Part shown: in pieces, positions 37,970-46,321 of the stretch
How the letters are laid out: the number at the start of each line of letters is the position of its first letter
Position numbering within the stretch: position 1 is the stretch's first letter
From: Blastocatellia bacterium
Lineage (GTDB): Bacteria > Acidobacteriota > Blastocatellia > UBA7656
DNA length: 64,000 nt
NCBI GenBank assembly: GCA_963765495.1
Contig: CAVXWP010000002.1
Span: forward strand, 416,001-480,000
Reading direction: 5' to 3'
Made by a program: the position numbers and the translations under genes
The notes under the pieces: generated by a model
Seen by the model: only the letters and a program-made list of their open reading frames with translations
Database searches by the model: none
What the model was told of the DNA's origin: nothing

Positions 37970-38045
37970 TGGCAGGGGTACCAGGATTCGAACCCGGCCT
38001 TACGGTTTTGGAGACCGCCGTGCTAGCCGCTAACACTATACCCCT
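37970..38045 (-). tRNA. tRNA-Trp(CCA)
   Basis: Cloverleaf aggggta...tacccctgcca; anticodon arm gcggt-ctCCAaa-accgt; GTTCGAAT. Confidence 0.97.
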
Positions 38046-38112
38046 GTTCAAAATCGCTCAAAAAAACATCTTCCGACTGAATCGCCTTCAACCTGTTCAG
38101 CGAGCCGCGAGA

Positions 38113-38265
38113 CTACTTGGTTTCCCTGTGGGCAGTGTGATTTCTGCATGTGTTGCAGAATTTTTTAAATTCAAGCCTGTCCGGCGTCTTCTTTTTATTC
38201 TTGGTCGTAAAGTAATTACGATTCTTGCACTCCGTACACTGAAGAACAATGTTATCTCTTGGCAT
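38113..38265 (-). CDS. rpmG: 50S ribosomal protein L33 (Zn type; not in the ORF track)
   Basis: Manual translation [50 protein letters not shown]. Confidence 0.98.
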
Positions 38266-38391
38266 AACCCCTCAACTTCGAAACTTAAATATTAACAGTA
38301 AATTCAACGACCTGCATACCCATCGAGGAATCTTAGGCCGTGTAGTTCCATTGAAAGGGCGAAAAAGCCTCCTTTTTCACCCTTATCATCA

Positions 38392-39579
38392 CTATTCAAT
38401 GACCTCGGAGATAGTGCCTGCTCCTACCGTTCGCCCTCCCTCTCGGATCGCGAACCTCAACCCCTTCTCCATCGCTATCGGCGTGATCAATTCCACTTCC
38501 AATGCACTGTTGTCTCCTGGCATCACCATCTCTACTCCTTCTGCCAACTGCGCCACTCCCGTCACATCCGTCGTACGAAAGTAAAACTGCGGCCGGTACC
38601 CGCTGAAAAACGGCGTGTGTCGCCCTCCCTCTTCCTTCGTCAAGACATACACTTCCGCCTTGAACTTCGTGTGCGGCGTGATCGACCCCGGTTTCGCTAT
38701 CACCTGCCCTCGCTCTACCTCTCTTCGCTCCACTCCTCTCAACAATAGCCCCACGTTGTCTCCTGCCATCCCAGAGTCCAACAACTTCTTGAACATCTCC
38801 ACTCCCGTCACCACCGTCTTGCGAGTCGGCTTCATCCCCACTATCTCTACATCCTCTCCTACCTTCACCTGCCCTCGCTCGATTCGCCCTGTCGCCACCG
38901 TACCTCTCCCGCTGATCGTGAATATATCTTCCACTGGCATCAAAAACGGCTTGTCAACCTCTCGCTCCGGCTGCGGAATGTAGCTGTCTACGGCTTCCAT
39001 CAACTCGTCTATGTTCTTCTCCCAGTCCCCTTCTCCGTTCAACGCTCCCAAGGCCGATCCTCTCACCACTGGAATGTCGTCCCCTGGAAATCCATAACTC
39101 GATAGCAACTCTCTTACTTCCAACTCCACCAGGTCCAGCAACTCCTCGTCATCTACGGCATCGACCTTGTTCATAAAGACGACCATCGCTGGCACGCCCA
39201 CCTGTCGGGCCAAAAGTATGTGCTCGCGAGTCTGAGGCATTGGACCGTCTGTGGCTGCAACGACAAGGATCGCCCCGTCCATCTGAGCCGCGCCCGTGAT
39301 CATGTTCTTGATGTAATCGGCGTGGCCCGGGCAATCGACGTGAGCATAGTGACGGTTGGCCGTCTCGTACTCAACGTGAGCAGTGGCAATCGTGATACCG
39401 CGAGCCTTCTCTTCGGGTGCGTTGTCGATGGAATCGAAGGACCGGAAGGTGATCTTAGGGTTATGCTTAGCAAGCACCTTGGTGATAGCAGCGGTCAAAG
39501 TGGTCTTGCCGTGGTCGATGTGTCCGATGGTGCCGACGTTGACGTGCGGCTTTGACCTGTCAAATTTCTCCTTGCCCAT
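38392..39579 (-). CDS. tuf: Elongation factor Tu (tRNA-cluster copy)
   Basis: Protein identical to the 19716-20903 copy; canonical Thr-Tyr-Gly-Thr-tuf context. Confidence 0.99.
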
Positions 39580-39610
39580 ATCTCTCCTGTATGTAGCTTG
39601 AGTCGTAGGC

Positions 39611-39685
<75 letters not shown>

Positions 39686-39708
39686 CTCGGTCACACTCAA
39701 GAATATAA

Positions 39709-39783
39709 TGGAGCGGGAGACGGGACTCGAACCCGCAACACCTAGCTTGGAAGGCTAGTGCGCTACCATTGCGCTACTCCCGC
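39709..39783 (-). tRNA. tRNA-Gly(TCC)
   Basis: gcgggag...ctcccgctcca; anticodon arm ctagc-ctTCCaa-gctag. Confidence 0.97.
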
Positions 39784-39792
39784 CCTTAAAAA

Positions 39793-39831
39793 TTCAAATC
39801 TCAAACTTCTGATCTCAAATCTGAGATTTCA
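39793..39831. repeat. AATCTCA 7-mer element between tRNA-Tyr and tRNA-Gly
   Basis: ttcaaatctcaaacttctgatctcaaatctgagatttca. Confidence 0.7.
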
Positions 39832-39834
39832 GTA

Positions 39835-39922
39835 TGGTGCTGGGGGTAGGATTCGAACCTACGTAGAGCCTAAGCCCGTCGGGTTTACAGCCCGATGCCA
39901 TTAACCACTCGACCACCCCAGC
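39835..39922 (-). tRNA. tRNA-Tyr(GTA)
   Basis: gctgggg...cccagcacca; anticodon arm tcggg-ctGTAaa-cccga; long variable arm. Confidence 0.96.
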
Positions 39923-39976
39923 ACTCGTGGCAGCCTCAATATTTATTATCAAGCCTGCGCTTAAATCACACAACTC

Positions 39977-40052
39977 TGGAGCCGGTGAAGGGATTCGAAC
40001 CCCCGACCCTCTGATTACAAATCAGATGCTCTACCAACTGAGCTACACCGGC
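39977..40052 (-). tRNA. tRNA-Thr(TGT)
   Basis: gccggtg...caccggctcca; anticodon arm tctga-ttTGTaa-tcaga. Confidence 0.97.
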
Positions 40053-40182: not shown

Positions 40183-41112
40183 ATGCGACAAATCGCCCTG
40201 GCGATAGTACGGCGGTTACTGGTTCTCCTTCCGGTCCTCTGGGCCGTCGTCACACTTGTATTCCTTCTGATTCATATAGTTCCAGGCGACCCGGCAGTCT
40301 TGCTGGTGGGCGAAAATGCCACTCAGGAGCAAATTCAGGTCGTCCGTCATGATCTCGGCCTTGATAAACCGCTCATCGCGCAATACGGCGATTACTGGAA
40401 AGGATTGGTGAGAGGCGATTGGGGTGTCAATCCCGTGACTCGGCAGCCCGTGCTCGCCCGCATAGCTACCAGATATCCGGCTACGATAAAGCTGGCTCTG
40501 GCTGCGATGTTTATCGCCACGCTTTTTTCGATCCCGCTTGGAGTGACGGCAGCAACTCATCGCGGCAGCTTCGTGGACAGTCTTTCGACGCTTGTTGCGC
40601 TCCTCGGTATCTCGCTTCCCAGCTTCGCTCTTGGCCCGCTCCTTATCCTTCTATTCTCAGTAGAGTTAGGCATTACGCCCGTATCCGGCGCAGGCGGCCT
40701 CGACAATTTGATACTTCCCGCAGTGACGCTCGGCGCGGCTCTTTCGGCGATACTGACGAGGATTGTACGCTCAAGCGTTCTCGAAGAGCTTGGAGAAGAT
40801 TACGTTCGGACCGCCCGGGCCAAGGGATTATCTGAAAAAAGAGTCATCTATAAACATGTGCTGAAGAATGGATTGATCCCCGTCGTCACGGTGCTTGGTT
40901 TACAGTTCGGGGTCTTGCTTGCGGGGGCAATAATCACCGAGCGCGTATTTTCCTGGCCGGGCATCGGAAGCCTGCTTGTCGACAGTATAAGCGAGCGCGA
41001 TTATAAACTGACGCAAGGCTGCATCCTGGCTATCGCAACTACGTATGTGCTGGTAAATACATTGACTGATATCTTTTACCGTTTCCTCGATCCGAGGATC
41101 AAGGTTGATTAA
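40183..41112 (+). CDS. Peptide/nickel ABC transporter permease (DppB/OppB family)
   Basis: PGDPA, LGLDKPL..QY, EAA loop EDYVRTARAKGLSE, TERVFSWPGIG. Confidence 0.93.
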   Translation: MRQIALAIVRRLLVLLPVLWAVVTLVFLLIHIVPGDPAVLLVGENATQEQIQVVRHDLGLDKPLIAQYGDYWKGLVRGDWGVNPVTRQPVLARIATRYPATIKLALAAMFIATLFSIPLGVTAATHRGSFVDSLSTLVALLGISLPSFALGPLLILLFSVELGITPVSGAGGLDNLILPAVTLGAALSAILTRIVRSSVLEELGEDYVRTARAKGLSEKRVIYKHVLKNGLIPVVTVLGLQFGVLLAGAIITERVFSWPGIGSLLVDSISERDYKLTQGCILAIATTYVLVNTLTDIFYRFLDPRIKVD

Positions 41113-41155
41113 GGAGGCAGGCCGTTTTATTGACCCTGTCTACAAACATTAAATT

Positions 41156-41968
41156 ATGAACCGAGTAGCAAAATTCGGATTTGTAGCAGTTGGTCTGCTG
41201 GTATTACTTGCGGTACTGTCGCCCTTGCTCGCCTCGTGGGACAGGGTCCAGAGCCAGGACCTTGGCGCACGCCTGGAATCGCCGGATGCCGCGCATCCGA
41301 TGGGGCGCGACCAGTTGGGACGCGACGTTTTAGCCCGGATAATTTACGGCGCAAGAATTTCTATGCTTGTAGGCATCTCGGTCGTCGGGTTGTCATCCAT
41401 CGCGGGCGTATTGATTGGAGCGATTTCAGGCTATAAGGGAGGATGGACAGACCGAATCATTTCGGGCTTTCTCTTTAATGTCTTTCTCTCCTTTCCGGGC
41501 ATACTTCTGGCCATCGCTATGGTAGCTTTCCTCGGGCCGAGTCTTAAGAATTTGATCATTGCCTTATCGGTGATCGGATGGGTCGGCTATGCCCGGCTTA
41601 TGCGAGCCCAGGTACTGAAGGTTCGCGAATATGATTTCGTCACCGCTGCCCGCGCCCTCGGAGCAAGCGATATAAGAATAATACTCAAACACATATTGCC
41701 AAATTCCATCCAACCCCTGATCGTTCAGGCATCGCTTGGCATGGCGGGCGCTATTCTTGCCGAAGCCGGATTGAGTTTCCTGGGTCTGGGAGTGCCTGAG
41801 CCAATTCCCTCCTGGGGAAAGATGATTGACGATTCACGCGAATTCTGGTTCACCGCCCCGCACCTGTTTATCTTTCCCGGCATAATGATCGCCATCTCGG
41901 TTCTTGCCTTCAACTTTATCGGAGACGGATTGCGCGAGCGCCTCGACCCGAGACAGAGGAAGGGATGA
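41156..41968 (+). CDS. Peptide/nickel ABC transporter permease (DppC/OppC family)
   Basis: HPMGRDQLGRDVLARIIYGARIS, FVTAARALGA, HILPN, EAGLSFLGLG, FNFIGDGLRE.LDPR. Confidence 0.93.
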   Translation: MNRVAKFGFVAVGLLVLLAVLSPLLASWDRVQSQDLGARLESPDAAHPMGRDQLGRDVLARIIYGARISMLVGISVVGLSSIAGVLIGAISGYKGGWTDRIISGFLFNVFLSFPGILLAIAMVAFLGPSLKNLIIALSVIGWVGYARLMRAQVLKVREYDFVTAARALGASDIRIILKHILPNSIQPLIVQASLGMAGAILAEAGLSFLGLGVPEPIPSWGKMIDDSREFWFTAPHLFIFPGIMIAISVLAFNFIGDGLRERLDPRQRKG

Positions 41969-42083: not shown

Positions 42084-43143
42084 CCTTTGTTTCTCTGTTT
42101 TCCAGAACATCAATGATGGCCTGCACGGTTCGCCCGGCCATTCCCGTATCGGGGTCTTCGGAAAGACGGCTCTCTCGCGTGCCCGATGCGAAGTGATGAA
42201 AGAGACGCAGCCGGTCTCTTAATCTCGGGTCGCGCAGCGGGCTTTCCGACGGCAGAGGCTCTTTCTCAAATACGTCAAGCGCCGCGCCGGCTATAGAGTC
42301 GTTCAACAATGCTTCGTATAAAGCGCCTTCATCCACTACCGGGCCGCGCGAGGTGTTAATCAAATAGGCTGTCGGCTTCATACGGTTGAAAACTTCCGCA
42401 TCTATAAGGTGATGGGTAGGCGCATCATTTTGACCGGGCATTATCAAAGGCACATGCAGGCTCACGAAATCGGCTCGCTCAATGGCTTTATCAAACGACA
42501 TGTACGCTACAGTGCGCCGCTTGCGTGAAAAGCCCGCTTCAAATCTCAACTGCATCTCGCGGTCGGCGAATTCGACAAATTTCTCATCCCGCCTTCGAGG
42601 GCTGTAGAGCAGCAGGTCCATGTCGAGTCCGATGCATTTTCGCGCAAATGCTTTCCCGATTCGCCCCGCGCCTATGACCGCGACGGTCTTCCCCGTCACC
42701 TCGTCTCCGAGGAAGGGGTGGAAGGGGTGCCACGCGCCCCAGCGATTCTCTTCAACCAGCTTCTCCGAAGAGTAAAGCTTGCGAGAGAGCGCGCCTAGCA
42801 TAAACAGAGCAAATTCCGCCGTGGCTTCTGTCAACACATCAGGCGTATTGGTAAAGGGTATCCCGTAACGATTGGCTGCCTCGCGGTCGATGTTGTCAAC
42901 TCCTACGGCGTATTGCGCGACCACGCGCAAAGTGCTCGCTCCTGCTGCAAAGACCTCTTCATCGATCTGATCGCGCAATGTCGTTATGAGCCCGTCAATA
43001 CCGCTTCTCACTTTTTCGATGATCAGAGATTTCGGCGGCGCTTCCCTCTGCGGATAAACCTCAACCGAATACCCGCGCTCTCGCAATCGACCGAGCGCAT
43101 CACCTATATCTGCGGTCGCATAGATTTGAATTTTTCCCTTCAT
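42061..43143 (-). CDS. D-2-hydroxyacid dehydrogenase (glyoxylate reductase/D-glycerate dehydrogenase family)
   Basis: AVGVDNID, TNTPDVLTEATAE, GAGRIG, SLHVPL, LINTSRGPVVDE, LDVFEKEP. Confidence 0.92.
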   Translation of the reverse strand: MKGKIQIYATADIGDALGRLRERGYSVEVYPQREAPPKSLIIEKVRSGIDGLITTLRDQIDEEVFAAGASTLRVVAQYAVGVDNIDREAANRYGIPFTNTPDVLTEATAEFALFMLGALSRKLYSSEKLVEENRWGAWHPFHPFLGDEVTGKTVAVIGAGRIGKAFARKCIGLDMDLLLYSPRRRDEKFVEFADREMQLRFEAGFSRKRRTVAYMSFDKAIERADFVSLHVPLIMPGQNDAPTHHLIDAEVFNRMKPTAYLINTSRGPVVDEGALYEALLNDSIAGAALDVFEKEPLPSESPLRDPRLRDRLRLFHHFASGTRESRLSEDPDTGMAGRTVQAIIDVLENRETKEGMRDEG

Positions 43144-43303
43144 AACCATCTCCGCAAGCTTTCAATCAATTCGTGCCTACATCTTGAACTCCGTCCGAAT
43201 CGGGCGCAAGTGCGATTGCCGCCTGATGACAAGATATAGTTGGAGGTCAACCGAGCATCGCTATTAGTTGTGCAATTTTCTATCTCCTCGAATCACTTTT
43301 TTC

Positions 43304-43332
43304 TTGACACGAAAGCAGATAAATCTTACTAT
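43304..43332 (+). promoter_or_regulatory. Consensus-like sigma70 promoter
   Basis: TTGACA-17 nt-TACTAT. Confidence 0.8.
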
Positions 43333-43366
43333 GCCGGTAACACCGGAAAGGAGGTGGTCCAAAGCA

Positions 43367-43405
43367 ATGATAAGTTTCAGACCAGGTGAGGTGGCTGAGG
43401 CCTGA
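43367..43405 (+). CDS. Candidate 12-aa peptide MISFRPGEVAEA
   Basis: ATG at 43367 preceded by gaaaggaggtggtcca; TGA at 43403-43405. Confidence 0.45.
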   Translation: MISFRPGEVAEA

Positions 43406-43539
43406 GCGTGGCCAGCCGCATGCGTGCGGCCTACGGAGGAGAAATCCTCTTATCTTATTATTCTTTCGCTGAAAGCAGGATCAGCACGCTCATTCCAGTA
43501 TTTGCGGATAGGCTACGGGCCAATCCCAACAGTCCACCG

Positions 43540-43597
43540 CAAGCCCCGACGTAGAGCATCGGTTCAATCCGGGTAGCCGCGTCGGGGCTTGTTTCTT
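43540..43597 (+). terminator. Intrinsic terminator
   Basis: caagccccgacg...cgtcggggcttg 12-bp stem followed by tttctt. Confidence 0.7.
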
Positions 43598-43664
43598 CTA
43601 TAAGGCAACCCGACACGTATCACCATTCATCGTCATTTTCGTCGGAAGTTTTCTCAAAAACCGG

Positions 43665-43694
43665 CTTGCCCTGATCTATTGGGCAAGGTAAAGT
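43665..43694 (+). promoter_or_regulatory. Putative OPT-gene promoter with overlapping inverted repeat
   Basis: TTGCCC-17 nt-TAAAGT; cttgccc-N9-gggcaag overlaps the -35 and the spacer. Confidence 0.5.
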
Positions 43695-43753
43695 AGCTTC
43701 GGACAACATCCCGCGCATTTTCGTGATTAAACACTTTTTCGGAGGTCTTCTTA

Positions 43754-46321
43754 ATGTCATCTGAAACCGCTGATGGTTCCAATCGGGTTGCCACTACAAA
43801 CGAATACCCGGATATGGTTGGAGCCAAGCCTGAAAACCCCTTCCTCGCGACATTTCGCCCTTACATCCCGGCCGGAACCACGATTAGAGAGTTGACCATA
43901 CTCCCATTGATCATAGGCACGCTCTTAGGGATAGTATTCGGGGCTTCGTCGTTGTATCTGGTTTTGAAAGTCGGCTTGACTGTGAGCGCTTCAATTCCCG
44001 TAGCGGTCATTTCGATAACGCTGTTTCGCCTGCTTTCAACAGTGGGGTTCAGAAATGCTACGATCCTTGAAAACAACATAGTCCAGACGGCAGGCTCGGC
44101 GGGCGAGTCCATCGCTTTTGGCGTGGGTGTAACGATGCCCGCCATCATGATTTTGGGATTCGATCTGGAATTCACTCGCGTGATGCTTGTCGCCGTGCTT
44201 GGTGGGCTGCTCGGAATTCTGATGATGATCCCGCTGCGCCGCGCCCTGATTGTCCAGCAACACGGTCTGTTGAAGTACCCGGAAGGAACAGCCTGCGCCG
44301 AGGTCTTGAAGGCCGGAGCCTCGGAGGAATCGCGCGCCGCCGCATCCGAAGAGGCGAAGGCTCAATGGGCCGAGGCGGGCGAAGGCTCGCAGATCGGCGC
44401 GAAGACCATCTTCACGGGATTTGGCATCGGCTTTATTTATCAGGTAGCGATGGTGGCCCTCAAAGCCTGGAAAGATGTCCCCGAAAAGATATTCGGCGCG
44501 CCTTTCAAGGCCGGGTCCATCGCGGCAGAAATTTCCCCGACCCTGCTCGGCGTAGGCTATATAATCGGGCCTCGCATCTCTTCGATCATGTGCGCGGGCG
44601 GCGTGCTGGCTTACCTTGTGCTGATCCCCGCGATCAAATTTTTCGGCGAAGGTATGACCGGCGTAGTTCCACCCGGAACCATGCCGATAAGCGAGATGGG
44701 GCCTAACGAAATTCGCGGCGCTTATGTGCTCTACATCGGCGCGGGCGCAGTCGCCGCGGGCGGAATCATCAGCCTCTTTCGATCACTTCCCACTATCTGG
44801 CACGGACTCAAAGGCGGCCTCAGCGATCTGAGGGGAGGACAGGCGGCGACCGATGCCGCGCCTCGAACCGATCAGGATATTTCGATGAAGTGGGTCATCG
44901 GCGGCATCATCGCGCTTGTCATATCGATAATGCTTGCTCGATCACTTCATATGAACTTTCTGGGCGCGGTAATGATAGTGGCTTTTGGATTTCTGTTTGT
45001 TACCGTCTCAAGCCGTTTGACCGGCGAGATCGGCTCATCGTCGAACCCGATTTCGGGAATGACGGTCGCTACCCTGCTTTTGACCTGTTTGATCTTTCTG
45101 GTGATCGGGTGGACCGGGCCGCTTTATTACGTCACAGCCCTTTCCGTTGGCGCGATAGTCTGCATAGCCGCATCCAACGGGGGCACCACGTCACAGGATT
45201 TAAAGACGGGCTTTCTGGTCGGAGCCACACCCAGGTATCAGCAGATCGCCATTCTTATAGGCGCGCTCGGATCGGCTCTTGTCCTCGGACCGATTCTGCT
45301 TAATCTCAACAGCGCCTCTACGGTCTTTGTGCCGCGCACCACCTTCGAGCAGGCAACAAAGGTTGAGGGTCAGATCGATCAGGCCAGACTTTCAACTCTT
45401 CCACCTTATACGGGAGATTTCAAACCCGACCAGCCGGGCAATTACCGGCTCTTGAGCTACGCGGCAGGCGAAGCGACTGCTCCTCCCGTGCCCGGGCTTG
45501 AGCCGGGCGATTATCTCGTCAACCAGACGGGGCAGGTCGTCTACAAAGTGCAGCACACGTTCCCCGAGGAGCTTCGCGCTCCTCAGGGACTGCAACAGAC
45601 CGAGAAACTCGAAGGGCCACAGGCTCAGACCGACACCAATACATACTTTGTATGGCAAAAGACCGATAGCGAAGGCGGACCCGAAGGCCGGTATCTGGTC
45701 AACAATCAGGGCGTGCCTGTGTATCTGGTTGATCCGGGCATCAACGGAACGCACAGGACCAGACCCGACGGAACCTCGGTGAATAAATTCGACGCGCCAA
45801 AGGCTACTTTGATGTCATACATCATCAAGGGGATTCTCAACCGCCAGTTGCCCTGGGGGCTTGTATTGCTGGGCGTAATGATTGCGATAGTGCTTGAAAT
45901 GTCGGGCATTCCGTCTCTGGCCTTTGCCGTCGGAGTCTATCTGCCGCTCTCTTCCTCAAGCCCGATCCTGATAGGCGGATTTGTGCGGTGGCTCGTCGAC
46001 ATCGGCCTGAGAAAGAAGTTCAAAGACAAAAACCTGACCGAAGAAGAGTTCGTGGCCGAAACAGACAAAAGCCCCGGCGTGCTGATGGCATCAGGCTACA
46101 TCGCGGGCGGCGCGATAGCCGGTATAGTTATAGCTTTTATGGCCGGGATACTGACAAACGCAAACAAGTCTATCGAAGACTGGGCCGGGGCGAACAATCC
46201 GTTTTTCTCAGGGCCCAATGCCAACCTGCTGTCGATGATCCCCTTCATCATATTGACCGTAGTGCTTTACATGGTAGGCCGTGAATGGCTTTTGGCGGGT
46301 AAGCCGCAGAAGGCGAAATAA
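43754..46321 (+). CDS. OPT-family oligopeptide transporter
   Basis: [78 protein letters not shown]. Confidence 0.95.

What the first reader, a model, noticed from the sequence alone, without database searches (positions are those of the whole stretch)
43304..43597. Stand-alone small transcript with a 16-nt complement of the 16S rRNA 3' end, a 12-codon ORF and a multibranch fold
Seen: TTGACA-17-TACTAT promoter. About 7 nt into the predicted transcript lies GAAAGGAGGTGGTCCA (43346-43361), which pairs over 16 nt (one G-U) with the canonical bacterial 16S tail UGGAUCACCUCCUUUC, far beyond a normal SD. It is followed by ORF MISFRPGEVAEA*, which contains a second SD-like tract (GTGAGGTGG). The stop codon lies in a helix (tgagcgtg/cacgctca) that closes hairpins gccgca/tgcggc, gagga-GAAA-tcctc and ctttc/gaaag. 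A terminator ends the unit. Inference: a 30S-binding or ribosome-sequestering RNA, a dual-function sRNA/peptide, or a leader. The downstream OPT gene seems to have its own promoter, which favours an independent unit.
Basis: partly seen in the sequence, partly recalled or inferred. Interest (0 to 1): 0.78.

Follow-up and report, generated by a model that had tools for sequence, protein, structure and literature searches.

The report
Small ribosome-docking RNA with tiny ORF
This is a real, self-contained small RNA gene, a member of a catalogued family of unknown function found in many soil bacteria, whose start pairs unusually strongly with the ribosome and which carries a conserved 12-codon reading frame.

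Summary
Window 43338-43599 (+) holds a promoter, a 17-nt complement of this genome's own 16S 3' end, a 12-codon ORF, a multibranch fold and a terminator.

It is not a new kind of element. It scores 52.3 bits (cut-off 45) against Rfam RF02471, Ms_IGR-5, an actinobacterial sRNA of unknown function.

A model of its 5' domain finds mostly one copy per genome: 24 of 151 sampled genomes of its own phylum, 79 of 151 Actinomycetota and 3 of 101 Thermodesulfobacteriota.

Across 111 distinct members:
- the complementarity to 16S reaches beyond the searched motif;
- a stop codon (TAG, TGA or TAA) always lies 5 codons (once 6) after a conserved GAGGUG;
- three helices and the terminator covary.

One helix pairs the 3' part of the long Shine-Dalgarno with ORF codons.

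Neighbouring genes differ between lineages. In one close relative the module is inverted between the same two genes. It is therefore autonomous and not a leader of the OPT gene.

The closest studied analogue is rreB/rreR of alpha-proteobacteria. That small mRNA has a 17-nt SD, binds 30S strongly and is weakly translated. Function remains unknown.

Verdict: a new member of a known kind, of moderate interest.

The parts
43304..43332 (+). Sigma-70-type promoter: TTGACA, 17-nt spacer, TACTAT
   Evidence: 10 of 12 consensus positions, the only such site in 43000-43900. Relatives carry a TTGAC(G/A)-about 17 nt-TAnnnT pair the same distance upstream of the ACAC start (seen by eye).
43338..43599 (+). 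Whole predicted transcript (about 260 nt), a member of Rfam RF02471 Ms_IGR-5
   Evidence: 52.3 bits against a cut-off of 45, model positions 1-184 of 184, at 43340-43597; fold z-score -3.5. RNA-library contigs of two studies begin at 43338 and 43339, which is only a weak hint of the start.
43345..43361 (+). Extended Shine-Dalgarno: 17-nt complement of this genome's 16S 3' tail (15 Watson-Crick and 2 G-U pairs)
   Evidence: own 16S tail; longest such run in the genome outside the rrn loci; -30.7 kcal/mol; flanking positions stay pairable across 111 members.
43355..43384 (+). Helix P1: UGGUC (43355-43359, the 3' part of the long SD) pairs with GACCA (43380-43384, ORF codons 5-6). The start codon lies in the loop.
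   Evidence: -8.8 kcal/mol; helix 93% paired in 54 sequences. The SD position that forms the G-U wobble with 16S covaries with its P1 partner (G-C 40, A-U 7, G-U 3, other 4).
43367..43405 (+). sORF of 12 codons, MISFRPGEVAEA, with stop TGA
   Evidence: all 111 distinct members have an in-frame ATG, GTG or TTG and a stop 5 codons (once 6) after GAG. Stops are TAG 87, TGA 12, TAA 12. Lengths are 11-21 codons.
43386..43394 (+). Internal SD-like tract GUGAGGUGG. GAGGUGG can form 7 pairs with the 16S tail, and it ends 5 nt before the last sense codon.
   Evidence: It was part of the collection search pattern, but it is also kept as GAGGUGG in members found with the model. Duplex with the tail -14.0 kcal/mol.
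43390..43397 (+). Helix P2, 5' strand GGUGGCUG (ORF codons 9-11)
   Evidence: 9 pairs, 93% paired, 5 pairs with changes on both sides.
43530..43538 (+). Helix P2, 3' strand CAGUCCACC, an anti-SD-like CCACC that lies 1 nt upstream of the terminator stem
   Evidence: Covariation examples: GGUGACUGC/GCAGUCACC, GGUGGCUAC/GUAGCCACC, GGUGUCCGU/ACGGACACC.
43403..43492 (+). Helix P3, which holds the stop codon (UGAGCGUG 43403-43410 with CACGCUCA 43485-43492), closing a lineage-variable insert with two or three hairpins
   Evidence: On the MAFFT alignment P3 is only 66% paired, though 8 of 10 pairs change on both sides. The insert differs even between close relatives.
43521..43529 (+). Conserved junction CAAUCCCAA (AAUyC is nearly invariant in both phyla). 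Its partner is unknown.
   Evidence: A184, A185, T186 and C188 of the first row are at least 90% conserved in 54 sequences.
43540..43599 (+). Intrinsic terminator: stem CAAGCCCCGACG / CGUCGGGGCUUG followed by UUUCUUCU
   Evidence: 12 pairs, 92-96% paired, 11 of them with changes on both sides.

Best explanation
The element is an autonomous, single-copy gene for a small structured mRNA/sRNA. It belongs to the Rfam family Ms_IGR-5 (RF02471), found here outside Actinobacteria. It is of the same kind as the rre small mRNAs of alpha-proteobacteria.

Proposed mechanism:
1. The transcript starts about 7 nt before a purine tract that is single-stranded (GGAAAGGAGGU). Inferred.
2. This tract seeds pairing with the 16S 3' tail of a 30S subunit. 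Inferred.
3. The duplex then extends into UGGUCCA by displacing helix P1. This frees the start codon and docks the RNA very firmly on the 30S. Inferred.
4. The 11-21 codon frame is read. Selection acts on the start, the stop and the RNA helices, not on the peptide. Shown by comparison.
5. The ribosome melts P2 and P3 in turn. Inferred.
6. It terminates at a stop codon placed so that the internal GAGGUGG lies at SD distance from the P site. Shown from the sequence.

The RNA therefore exists in a ribosome-free folded state and a ribosome-engaged open state. The biological output is unknown. Candidates are control of its own decay, exposure of the CCACC/AAUCC strand, or reporting of free 30S.
For: Identity:
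- Full-length hit to RF02471 at 52.3 bits (cut-off 45), the only copy in the genome.

Autonomy:
- The promoter keeps its position and the terminator covaries.
- Downstream genes differ: OPT transporter, class-III aminotransferase, alpha/beta hydrolase, Usp, convergent TonB. Actinobacterial neighbours differ by clade.
- In L072 the element with its promoter aligns forward while both flanking genes align in reverse.

Pairing with 16S:
- Own 16S tail read directly; top outlier in the genome; -30.7 kcal/mol.
- In 111 distinct members the positions outside the searched motif stay pairable: -3 in 99%, -2 and -1 purines only (100%), -4 in 86%, +11 in 83%, +12 in 91%. Pairing stops at +13 (29%).
- Members found with the model have runs of 10-18 nt.

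P1 gate:
- 93% paired. The R at the 16S wobble position covaries with its P1 partner while staying a purine that can pair with the 16S U.

Reading frame:
- 111 of 111 members have an in-frame start and a stop at a fixed distance, using all three stop codons.
- 22 of 23 model-found members of the phylum do the same (plus L149 read by eye).
- Codons 5 and 7 of the actinobacterial ORFs are NGG and NGU with all four first bases, giving R/W/G and R/C/S/G (by eye). The conservation therefore lies at RNA level.

Structure:
- 85% of cells paired against 75% in shuffles; covariation score 0.353 against 0.179; 0 of 500 shuffles reach it; slid controls give 35-45%.

Expression:
- Ms_IGR-5 carries ribosome-protected reads in M. 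abscessus and M. smegmatis (PMC4974804, passage).
- It is validated by RNA-seq in S. lividans (PMC8079986, passage) and is an sRNA transcription unit in S. avermitilis (PMC8780764, passage).
- Contigs from four soil RNA libraries of four studies match 43338-43419 at 95% or better.

Analogy:
- rreB binds 30S, needs the 5' extension for that binding, is weakly translated, and is stabilised when its start codon is removed (PMC5711450, Results and Discussion read).
Against: - No experiment on this RNA, nor on any Ms_IGR-5 member, shows 30S binding, strand invasion of P1 or translation. Ribosome-protected reads could come from 30S docking alone.
- Expression in the window's own organism is not shown. 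The RNA-library contigs diverge after 43419, so they come from relatives. Such libraries can also hold DNA.
- Eleven of the 17 SD positions, and GTGAGGTG, were fixed by my collection search, so their invariance in that set is circular. In one acidobacterial family a base is inserted in the SD (GGAGGAUGAUCC or GGAGGUUGAUCC), leaving a 10-11 nt contiguous run.
- The core GGAGG lies 12 nt before the ATG, longer than the usual spacing (read).
- P3 is poorly supported on the MAFFT alignment (66% paired).
- Sequences are related, so the shuffle controls overstate significance.
- One metagenome member (L228) has the GAGGUGG out of frame with its stop.
- No sequence homology to rre/CC2171 was shown: 15.6 bits against a cut-off of 75, E = 0.6.
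- The same-family genome G050 gave no match.
Confidence: 0.6

Rival explanations
1. Peptide-centred reading. The RNA is simply an mRNA for a micro-protein of 11-21 residues ending R-(T/P)-(R/G)-E-V-A-x-x. The peptide is the effector, and the long SD only sets its expression level.
For: The frame, start and stop are conserved. A C-terminal EVA motif is seen in all members. Hahn et al. found RreB and RreR conserved within their clades (PMC5711450, Results).
Against: - The conserved residues all coincide with RNA elements: P1, GAGGUGG and P2.
- Codon 5 is NGG and codon 7 is NGU with any first base, which swaps R/W/G and R/C/S/G.
- The N-terminal and last two residues vary freely, and length varies from 11 to 21.
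- E and V were fixed by the search pattern.
- Synthetic RreB and RreR were unstructured, and overproduction of the translatable 14c-rreB mRNA, expected to raise RreB, had no growth effect (PMC5711450).
Confidence: 0.12
2. Base-pairing riboregulator gated by the ribosome. The conserved C-rich strand (AAUCCCAACAGUCCACC), masked in P2, is a seed that pairs with G-rich or SD regions of target mRNAs once translation of the sORF opens P2.
For: The junction AAUyC and the CCACC strand are the most conserved 3' elements. P2 must open when the last ORF codons are read (follows from the geometry). Dual-function sRNAs are an established class (recalled).
Against: No target search was done and no partner was identified. 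The strand's conservation is already explained by P2. No conserved gene neighbour hints at a regulon.
Confidence: 0.13
3. Ribosome sponge or hibernation RNA that titrates 30S subunits globally.
For: Very strong predicted duplex with the 16S tail. rreB sits mainly in the 30S fraction (PMC5711450).
Against: Nearly always one copy per genome. Hahn et al. report ribosomes in large excess over rreB, and no growth change at 20-fold overproduction (PMC5711450, Results and Discussion). The conserved sORF, stop codon and P2/P3 would be unnecessary.
Confidence: 0.06
4. 5' stabiliser only (STAB-SD-like). The 5'-proximal SD holds a 30S to protect the RNA from 5'-end-dependent decay, and the ORF is incidental.
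For: The SD lies about 7 nt from the predicted 5' end in all members. STAB-SD of cryIIIA works this way (recalled, not read here).
Against: The stop codon position is under selection. In rreB, removing the start codon raises stability, so ribosome engagement destabilises the RNA (PMC5711450). A stabiliser also needs something to stabilise, which leaves the function open.
Confidence: 0.05
5. Leader or attenuator of the downstream OPT transporter gene.
For: OPT follows 157 nt downstream on the same strand. No second promoter passes the scan threshold. OPT is also downstream in L071 and L130.
Against: Five other acidobacterial loci have unrelated downstream genes. In L072 the element is inverted relative to OPT and the dehydrogenase gene. 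The terminator is conserved and covaries, and I saw no alternative antiterminator by inspection.
Confidence: 0.03

Closest known systems
Rfam RF02471, Ms_IGR-5 (actinobacterial sRNA first found in Mycobacterium smegmatis; the original paper is recalled, not read)
   Same: Full-length match above the curated cut-off. It shares the ACAC start, the long SD, GUGAGGUGG, P2, the AAUyC junction and the terminal hairpin. The 5'-domain model finds it in 79 of 151 sampled Actinomycetota genomes. Setting aside five unpublished genomes, all of which have matches, the count is 74 of 146.
   Different: - The host is not an actinobacterium. Its close relatives L071 and L072 are labelled Blastocatellia.
- It carries a 102-nt insert where the model has 28 nt.
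- P1 is shifted by one base.
- In the passages I read the family is treated only as an sRNA. The long SD, the sORF and the helices are not mentioned there.
rreB / rreR small mRNAs of alpha-proteobacteria (Hahn et al. 2016, PMC5711450; abstract, Results and Discussion read)
   Same: - A stand-alone small transcript with its own promoter and terminator.
- 16-17 nt complementary to the 16S 3' end, a few nt from the 5' end.
- Only the 5' part of that tract is single-stranded; the rest, with the start codon, lies in a hairpin.
- A sORF of 14-18 codons.
- The genomic context is not conserved across orders.
   Different: - No detectable sequence homology.
- In rreB the complementarity is perfect and runs into a GTG start. 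Here there is one internal G-U and the ATG lies 5 nt further on.
- An internal GAGGUGG and the P2 helix were not described for rre.
- That paper reports rre in alpha-proteobacteria only. It does not mention Rfam, CC2171, Actinobacteria or Acidobacteria.
Rfam RF01867, CC2171 (Caulobacter sRNA; expression shown by Northern blot in Methylorubrum, function unknown; preprint 10.1101/2022.01.24.477521, passages)
   Same: Its consensus begins cAAcaAucGAAAGGAGGUGAUCCAG. Four of 20 metagenome loci that carry the long SD followed by GTG pass its cut-off. These encode sORFs beginning VSH.... It therefore looks like the alpha-proteobacterial counterpart.
   Different: The window scores only 15.6 bits against a cut-off of 75. 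An in-frame GAGGU near the stop occurs in only 15 of 96 sORFs of this type.
STAB-SD 5' mRNA stabiliser of Bacillus cryIIIA (recalled, not read)
   Same: An SD-like tract (GAAAGGAGG) close to the 5' end that is thought to hold a 30S subunit.
   Different: STAB-SD is part of a long mRNA leader and is not followed by its own start codon. Here a conserved sORF follows, and the RNA is a separate unit.
Leader-peptide transcription attenuators (trp-type; textbook knowledge)
   Same: A short ORF whose translation would disrupt a downstream helix, with a terminator close by.
   Different: There is no conserved downstream operon, no regulatory codons, and no alternative antiterminator was seen.

Membership tests
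Rfam RF02471 Ms_IGR-5 | Score at or above the curated gathering cut-off over the whole model | tested here: met
   52.3 bits against 45, model positions 1-184 of 184, E = 8e-11 on the 651-nt stretch.
Rfam RF02471 Ms_IGR-5 | Shared sequence blocks: ACAC-R-rich-GGAGGUGRUCC, GUGAGGUGG, AAUyC-n-CAG-n-CACC, then a terminal hairpin | tested here: met
   Alignment to the model and to 53 other members.
Rfam RF02471 Ms_IGR-5 | Conserved secondary structure with covariation | tested here: met
   P1, P2 and the terminator are 92-96% paired, and 27 of 36 pairs change on both sides. P3 is weak (66%). My structure differs in part from Rfam's first hairpin.
Rfam RF02471 Ms_IGR-5 | Expressed as a discrete small RNA | tested here: inconclusive
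   RNA-library contigs of four studies cover 43338-43419 and then diverge, so they come from relatives. Nothing was obtained for the window's own organism.
rre small mRNAs (rreB/rreR) | At least 16 nt complementary to the 16S 3' end directly upstream of a sORF | tested here: met
   17 contiguous pairs with this genome's own 16S tail, two of them G-U. The sORF starts 5 nt later.
rre small mRNAs (rreB/rreR) | Complementarity runs into a GTG start codon | tested here: not met
   The start is ATG at 43367, 5 nt after the pairing ends. Some relatives do have GTG directly after CCAG. Hahn et al. also report an ATG variant in Azospirillum.
rre small mRNAs (rreB/rreR) | Stand-alone transcript with its own promoter and terminator | tested here: met
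   By prediction and comparison only.
rre small mRNAs (rreB/rreR) | Strong binding to the 30S subunit and weak translation | not testable with these tools
   Needs sucrose-gradient co-sedimentation and reporter fusions, as in PMC5711450.
rre small mRNAs / Rfam RF01867 CC2171 | Sequence and structure homology to the alpha-proteobacterial family | tested here: not met
   15.6 bits against a cut-off of 75, E = 0.6. Only the SD tract and a terminal hairpin align.
Leader-peptide attenuator of the OPT gene | Constant linkage and orientation to the regulated gene | tested here: not met
   Different downstream genes in five acidobacterial loci. Orientation is inverted in L072.
STAB-SD-type stabiliser | The 5'-proximal SD raises RNA half-life without serving a start codon | not tested
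   The family is known to me only from memory. A start codon does follow here.

The most novel reading that the evidence does not exclude
Ms_IGR-5 (Actinomycetota, Acidobacteriota and scattered other phyla) and CC2171/rre (alpha-proteobacteria) are branches of one ancient, widespread class of 30S-docking mini-mRNAs. In this class the 16S tail itself acts as the ligand. It invades P1, licenses translation of a sORF whose only role is to unzip P2 and P3, and is recaptured by the internal GAGGUGG at the stop codon. The RNA would thereby read out the supply or integrity of free 30S subunits (their mature 16S 3' ends) and convert it into a regulatory signal.
Probability: 0.15. Interest if true: 0.85.

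Novelty: new member of a known kind. Interest (0 to 1): 0.5.

Why it matters
The family is single-copy in about half of the sampled actinobacterial species genomes, a sample that includes Mycobacterium and Streptomyces. It is present in about one in six sampled genomes of the window's phylum. Its function is nevertheless unknown.

This analysis gives the catalogue entry an anatomy:
- a 5' tract selected to pair with about 17 nt of the 16S tail;
- a helix that hides part of that tract together with the start codon;
- a reading frame kept for its start and stop rather than for its peptide;
- a second SD-like tract locked in a long-range helix.

It also links the family to the one experimentally studied analogue, rreB. 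That link yields concrete, cheap tests in tractable hosts such as M. smegmatis and Streptomyces.

If the RNA reports or regulates ribosome status, it would be a widespread layer of translational control. If not, the practical gain is a corrected taxonomic range and structure for RF02471.

Tried and rejected
As the tool advised, I modelled only the 5' domain (A2, R1). P2, P3 and the terminator therefore rest on a MAFFT alignment of 54 sequences, not on a structural alignment.
- RF02471 as a search model in the window's phylum: only 8 of 151 genomes at E <= 0.01. I judged two of those (L007, L008) false by eye. R1 found 24 of 151. I judged one (L154) false because it looks coding and has no GAGGUG.
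- Collection pattern scan: 5 of the 125 stretches examined (119 from this scan plus L001-L006) were ordinary genes or lacked the sORF. I dropped L065, L075, L102, L115 and L131.
- Conserved-neighbour search by all-against-all BLAST of flanking ORFs: only clade-local synteny was found. Examples are a GCV_T-domain gene and a THAP4 heme-binding gene in 14-16 loci each, and citrate synthase plus PNPOx in 9-10 loci. High-GC spurious ORFs make these counts rough.
- Frame test on indels: in 12 members with an ATG at a fixed offset, the ATG-to-GAG distance is 42, 45 or 48 nt, always a multiple of 3. That is too few independent events to weigh much.
- Homology of the alpha-proteobacterial type with this family through an 'EV near the stop' motif: only 15 of 96. 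Not established.
- A pseudoknot partner for the AAUyC junction, and an antiterminator alternative to the terminator: looked for by eye only; none found.
- RNA runs: all shares of words were small (at most 0.08). The contigs laid do not cover 43420-43828. That gap says nothing about the 3' end or about the window's own organism.
- Supplementary files of papers are closed. Fig. S1 of PMC5711450 (rre alignments) and the tables of the Ribo-seq paper may bear on the comparison, and I did not see them.
- Not in print, as far as the library reaches. No paper links Ms_IGR-5 with a long SD or with rre. Searches: 'Ms_IGR-5', 3 papers; CC2171 and sRNA, 4; extended SD terms, 18; rreB and Shine-Dalgarno, 1; title phrase, 4; terms absent from PMC5711450.
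- One search listed 18 papers that cite the M. smegmatis Hfq study. I opened none of them.
Full report
**What is in the window.**

- The promoter TTGACA-17-TACTAT (43304-43332) is the only promoter-like site in 43000-43900 (10 of 12 consensus positions).
- It would start transcription near 43338-43340, at AACACC.
- GGAAAGGAGGUGGUCCA follows at 43345-43361.
- The ORF is ATG (43367) ... TGA (43403-43405), encoding MISFRPGEVAEA.
- The second SD-like tract GUGAGGUGG is at 43386-43394.
- A multibranch region follows, and then a GC-rich hairpin (43540-43591) with a U-rich tail.
- The 263-nt stretch folds better than all 200 shuffles (z = -3.5).

**Pairing with the 16S tail.**

The genome holds two 16S genes. 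Both end ...CUGGAUCACCUCCUUUCU. The pairing is therefore with the organism's own rRNA, not with an assumed consensus. It amounts to 17 contiguous pairs, 15 Watson-Crick and 2 G-U.

I scanned all 11,429 GGAGG sites of the 7.3-Mb genome in register with that tail. Apart from the antisense of the rRNA genes themselves, this is the longest run. The runners-up are 16 (5 G-U) and 15 (4 G-U). The genome does use long SDs: many sites have 12 perfect pairs. The 14-mer AAGGAGGTGRTCCA occurs only here and at the two rrn loci. The predicted duplex energy is -30.7 kcal/mol, against -11.6 for AGGAGG and -22.2 for a 12-nt SD.

**It belongs to a catalogued family.**

A scan against Rfam gives a full-length match to RF02471, Ms_IGR-5: 52.3 bits against a cut-off of 45, at 43340-43597. 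It is the only copy in the genome.

The model's consensus shows the same ACAC start, GGAAGGAGGUGGUCC, GUGAGGUGG and terminal hairpin. The window carries a 102-nt insert where the model has 28 nt.

A much weaker match (15.6 bits, cut-off 75) aligns the same 5' tract to the start of the Caulobacter sRNA family CC2171, RF01867.

**Relatives.**

- RF02471 finds few relatives in the window's own phylum. Eight of 151 sampled genomes match at E <= 0.01, and two of those look false.
They came from many Actinomycetota and from Acidobacteriota of several classes: Terriglobia, Blastocatellia/Pyrinomonadaceae, Bryobacterales and Polarisedimenticolia.
- Among the 80 record titles shown there were also single metagenome-assembled genomes labelled Thermodesulfobacteriota, Myxococcota and Heliobacteriaceae.
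- Five stretches were ordinary genes or lacked the sORF and were dropped.
- From 112 distinct 5' domains I built model R1. It finds:
  - 24 of 151 genomes in the window's phylum. One match is false, each genome has one match, and the single same-family genome sampled has none.
  - 79 of 151 Actinomycetota, or 74 of 146 without five unpublished genomes. One genome has two matches.
  - 3 of 101 Thermodesulfobacteriota, including the genome used as centre. One of these is a clear member.

**What is conserved.**

*(a) The complement of the 16S tail.* Eleven positions were fixed by my pattern, so only the flanks count. In 111 distinct members:
- position -3 is G in 110;
- positions -2 and -1 are always purines, which pair with the tail's U's;
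- position -4 is pairable in 86%, +11 in 83% and +12 in 91%;
- position +13 drops to 29%.

Selection therefore maintains about 17 pairable positions. Members found with the model have runs of 10-18 nt. One acidobacterial family has a single base inserted after GGAGG.

*(b) The reading frame.* All 111 members have an in-frame ATG (59), TTG (36) or GTG (16). All have a stop 5 codons (once 6) after GAG, using TAG (87), TGA (12) and TAA (12). ORF lengths run from 11 to 21 codons. Of the 23 genuine phylum members, 22 keep the stop. In L148 it reads TAT, and the sequence after it looks disrupted.

A site that changes only among the three stop codons points to selection for termination.

The peptide itself looks unselected. 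Codon 5 is NGG and codon 7 is NGU with all four first bases, giving R/W/G and R/C/S/G. The ends vary freely.

*(c) Structure.* On a 54-sequence alignment I tested four helices.
- P1 pairs the 3' part of the long SD (G-R-U-C-C) with ORF codons 5-6 and puts the start codon in its loop. It is 93% paired. The SD base that makes the G-U wobble with 16S covaries with its P1 partner (G-C 40, A-U 7, G-U 3, other 4) and always remains a purine that can pair with the 16S U.
- P2 pairs GGUGGCUG (the ORF end) with CAGUCCACC, which lies 1 nt upstream of the terminator stem. It is 93% paired, and 5 of 9 pairs change on both sides.
- P3 holds the stop codon. It is only 66% paired on this alignment.
- The terminator is 92-96% paired, and 11 of 12 pairs change on both sides.

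Overall, 85% of cells pair, against 75% in shuffles and 35-45% in slid controls. The covariation score is 0.353 against 0.179, and 0 of 500 shuffles reach it. The sequences are related, so these controls overstate significance.

**It is autonomous.**

- Downstream genes in six acidobacterial loci are unrelated.
- Actinobacterial neighbours are conserved only within clades.
- The closest relatives keep the window's neighbours, a 2-hydroxyacid dehydrogenase gene and the OPT gene.
- In L072, however, the element and its promoter align forward while both neighbours align in reverse. The module has flipped between the same two genes.

This is hard to reconcile with a leader of OPT.

**Expression.**

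Passages in three papers report the following:
- ribosome-protected reads on Ms_IGR-5 in M. abscessus and M. smegmatis (PMC4974804);
- RNA-seq validation in S. lividans (PMC8079986);
- an sRNA transcription unit in S. avermitilis (PMC8780764).

For the window itself, no run held more than 8% of the sampled words. Contigs from four soil RNA libraries of four studies match 43338/43339/43350/43353 to 43413/43419 at 95% or better and then run on unlike. They therefore come from relatives with another insert. Two of them begin at the predicted start, which is only a weak hint.

**The closest studied system.**

A literature search led to Hahn et al. 2016 (PMC5711450). I read its abstract, Results and Discussion. 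They report that rreB of Bradyrhizobium has these properties:
- it is a 165-nt stand-alone mRNA with a 17-nt perfect complement of the 16S tail and a 14-codon ORF;
- only the 5' part of the tract is predicted to be single-stranded, and the rest, with the start codon, lies in a hairpin;
- the RNA co-sediments with 30S, and this depends on the 5' extension;
- translation is weak;
- replacing the start codon raises the half-life from 10 to 37 min;
- 20-fold overproduction does not change growth.

They report such genes in alpha-proteobacteria only. They do not mention Rfam, CC2171, Actinobacteria or Acidobacteria.

A metagenome scan for the long SD followed by GTG returned 120 loci:
- 96 encode sORFs starting VS...;
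- 16 encode other sORFs, 11 of which contain GTGAGGTG;
- 8 are truncated.

Of the 20 loci I gave to Rfam, 4 pass the CC2171 cut-off and 2 pass the Ms_IGR-5 cut-off. CC2171 thus appears to be the alpha-proteobacterial counterpart. Homology between the two types is not shown. An in-frame GAGGU near the stop occurs in only 15 of 96 of the VS... type.

**Reading.**

I am fairly confident of the following:
- this is a real, autonomous, single-copy small-RNA gene of the Ms_IGR-5 family;
- its 5' tract is selected to pair with the 16S tail;
- its short frame is read or at least terminated;
- P1, P2 and the terminator form.

The following is inferred. The single-stranded purines seed 16S pairing. The duplex spreads by displacing P1 (-8.8 kcal/mol against -30.7) and frees the start codon. 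The ribosome then opens P2 and P3. At the stop codon the internal GAGGUGG sits 5 nt from the P-site codon, where the 16S tail could pair again. The biological output is unknown.

The rivals are given separately with their odds:
- a peptide effector;
- a ribosome-gated base-pairing seed;
- a global 30S sponge;
- a pure 5' stabiliser;
- an OPT leader.

**Novelty.**

The family and the kind are both known, so this is a new member of a known kind. As far as my searches reach, three things have not been said in print:
- the family extends into Acidobacteriota and other phyla;
- it has the long SD, the sORF and the P1/P2/P3 anatomy described here;
- it parallels rre and CC2171.

Noticed in passing
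L072:1215-1470 compared with window 43290-43557: In this close relative (a Blastocatellia genome) the element and its promoter lie between the same two genes as in the window, the dehydrogenase and OPT genes, but in the opposite orientation. This is a local inversion of the about 300-bp module.
   Followed up: partly
window 43435-43460: A small GGAGGA-GAAA-UCCUCU hairpin followed by UAUCUUAUUAUU was flagged as terminator-like. If it is active it would give a short form of about 110 nt. It lies in the lineage-variable insert and is not conserved.
   Followed up: no
L148 (G111:C16), about locus 1500-1900: This copy has TAT where the stop codon should be (GCC TAT AGA), and the sequence after it no longer resembles the family. 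It may be interrupted by an insertion.
   Followed up: no
L139, L142, L143, L145, L147, L148, L150 (mostly acidobacterial family f30): One extra base sits inside the long SD (GGAGG-A-UGAUCC or GGAGG-U-UGAUCC). This splits the 16S complement into about 10 plus 8 nt. In the A variants it creates an AUG that is in frame with the sORF.
   Followed up: partly
alignment A1, columns about 270-280 (actinobacterial members, L002, L004): The motif GUCC is conserved in the loop of a hairpin nested in the terminator stem. It repeats the SD strand of P1 and could pair with the same GGAC. It is absent from the window's own copy.
   Followed up: no
window 37973-40052 (- strand): A cluster of five tRNA genes.
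   Followed up: no
window 40183-41968 and 43754-46321: Two oligopeptide-type ABC permease genes (BPD_transp_1, OppC_N) and an 855-aa OPT oligopeptide transporter gene flank the element. Together they form a peptide-uptake neighbourhood.
   Followed up: no
own genome G000, for example C9:736081, C9:841562, C8:686959: This genome has many very long ordinary SDs. There are 18 sites with 12 pairs, of which ten are perfect 12-mers such as GAAAGGAGGTGA. There are also two 13-nt runs with one G-U, at C9:553434 and C16:32493.
   Followed up: no
metagenome loci L157-L276: Among sORFs that follow the long SD plus GTG, several discrete peptide families recur. VS(Y/F/C)xKRCHLAGIAR has 14 aa (21 loci have that length). 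VSRxxLExxV... has 18 aa (14 loci). VSHC... has 21-25 aa. In 48 of the 96 loci of this type the ORF contains CTGGA, the complement of the SD's TCCAG, which is like P1.
   Followed up: partly
G176 (Actinomycetota): C17:3900-3972 and C126:9388-9460: This is the only genome of 151 with two matches to the 5'-domain model.
   Followed up: no
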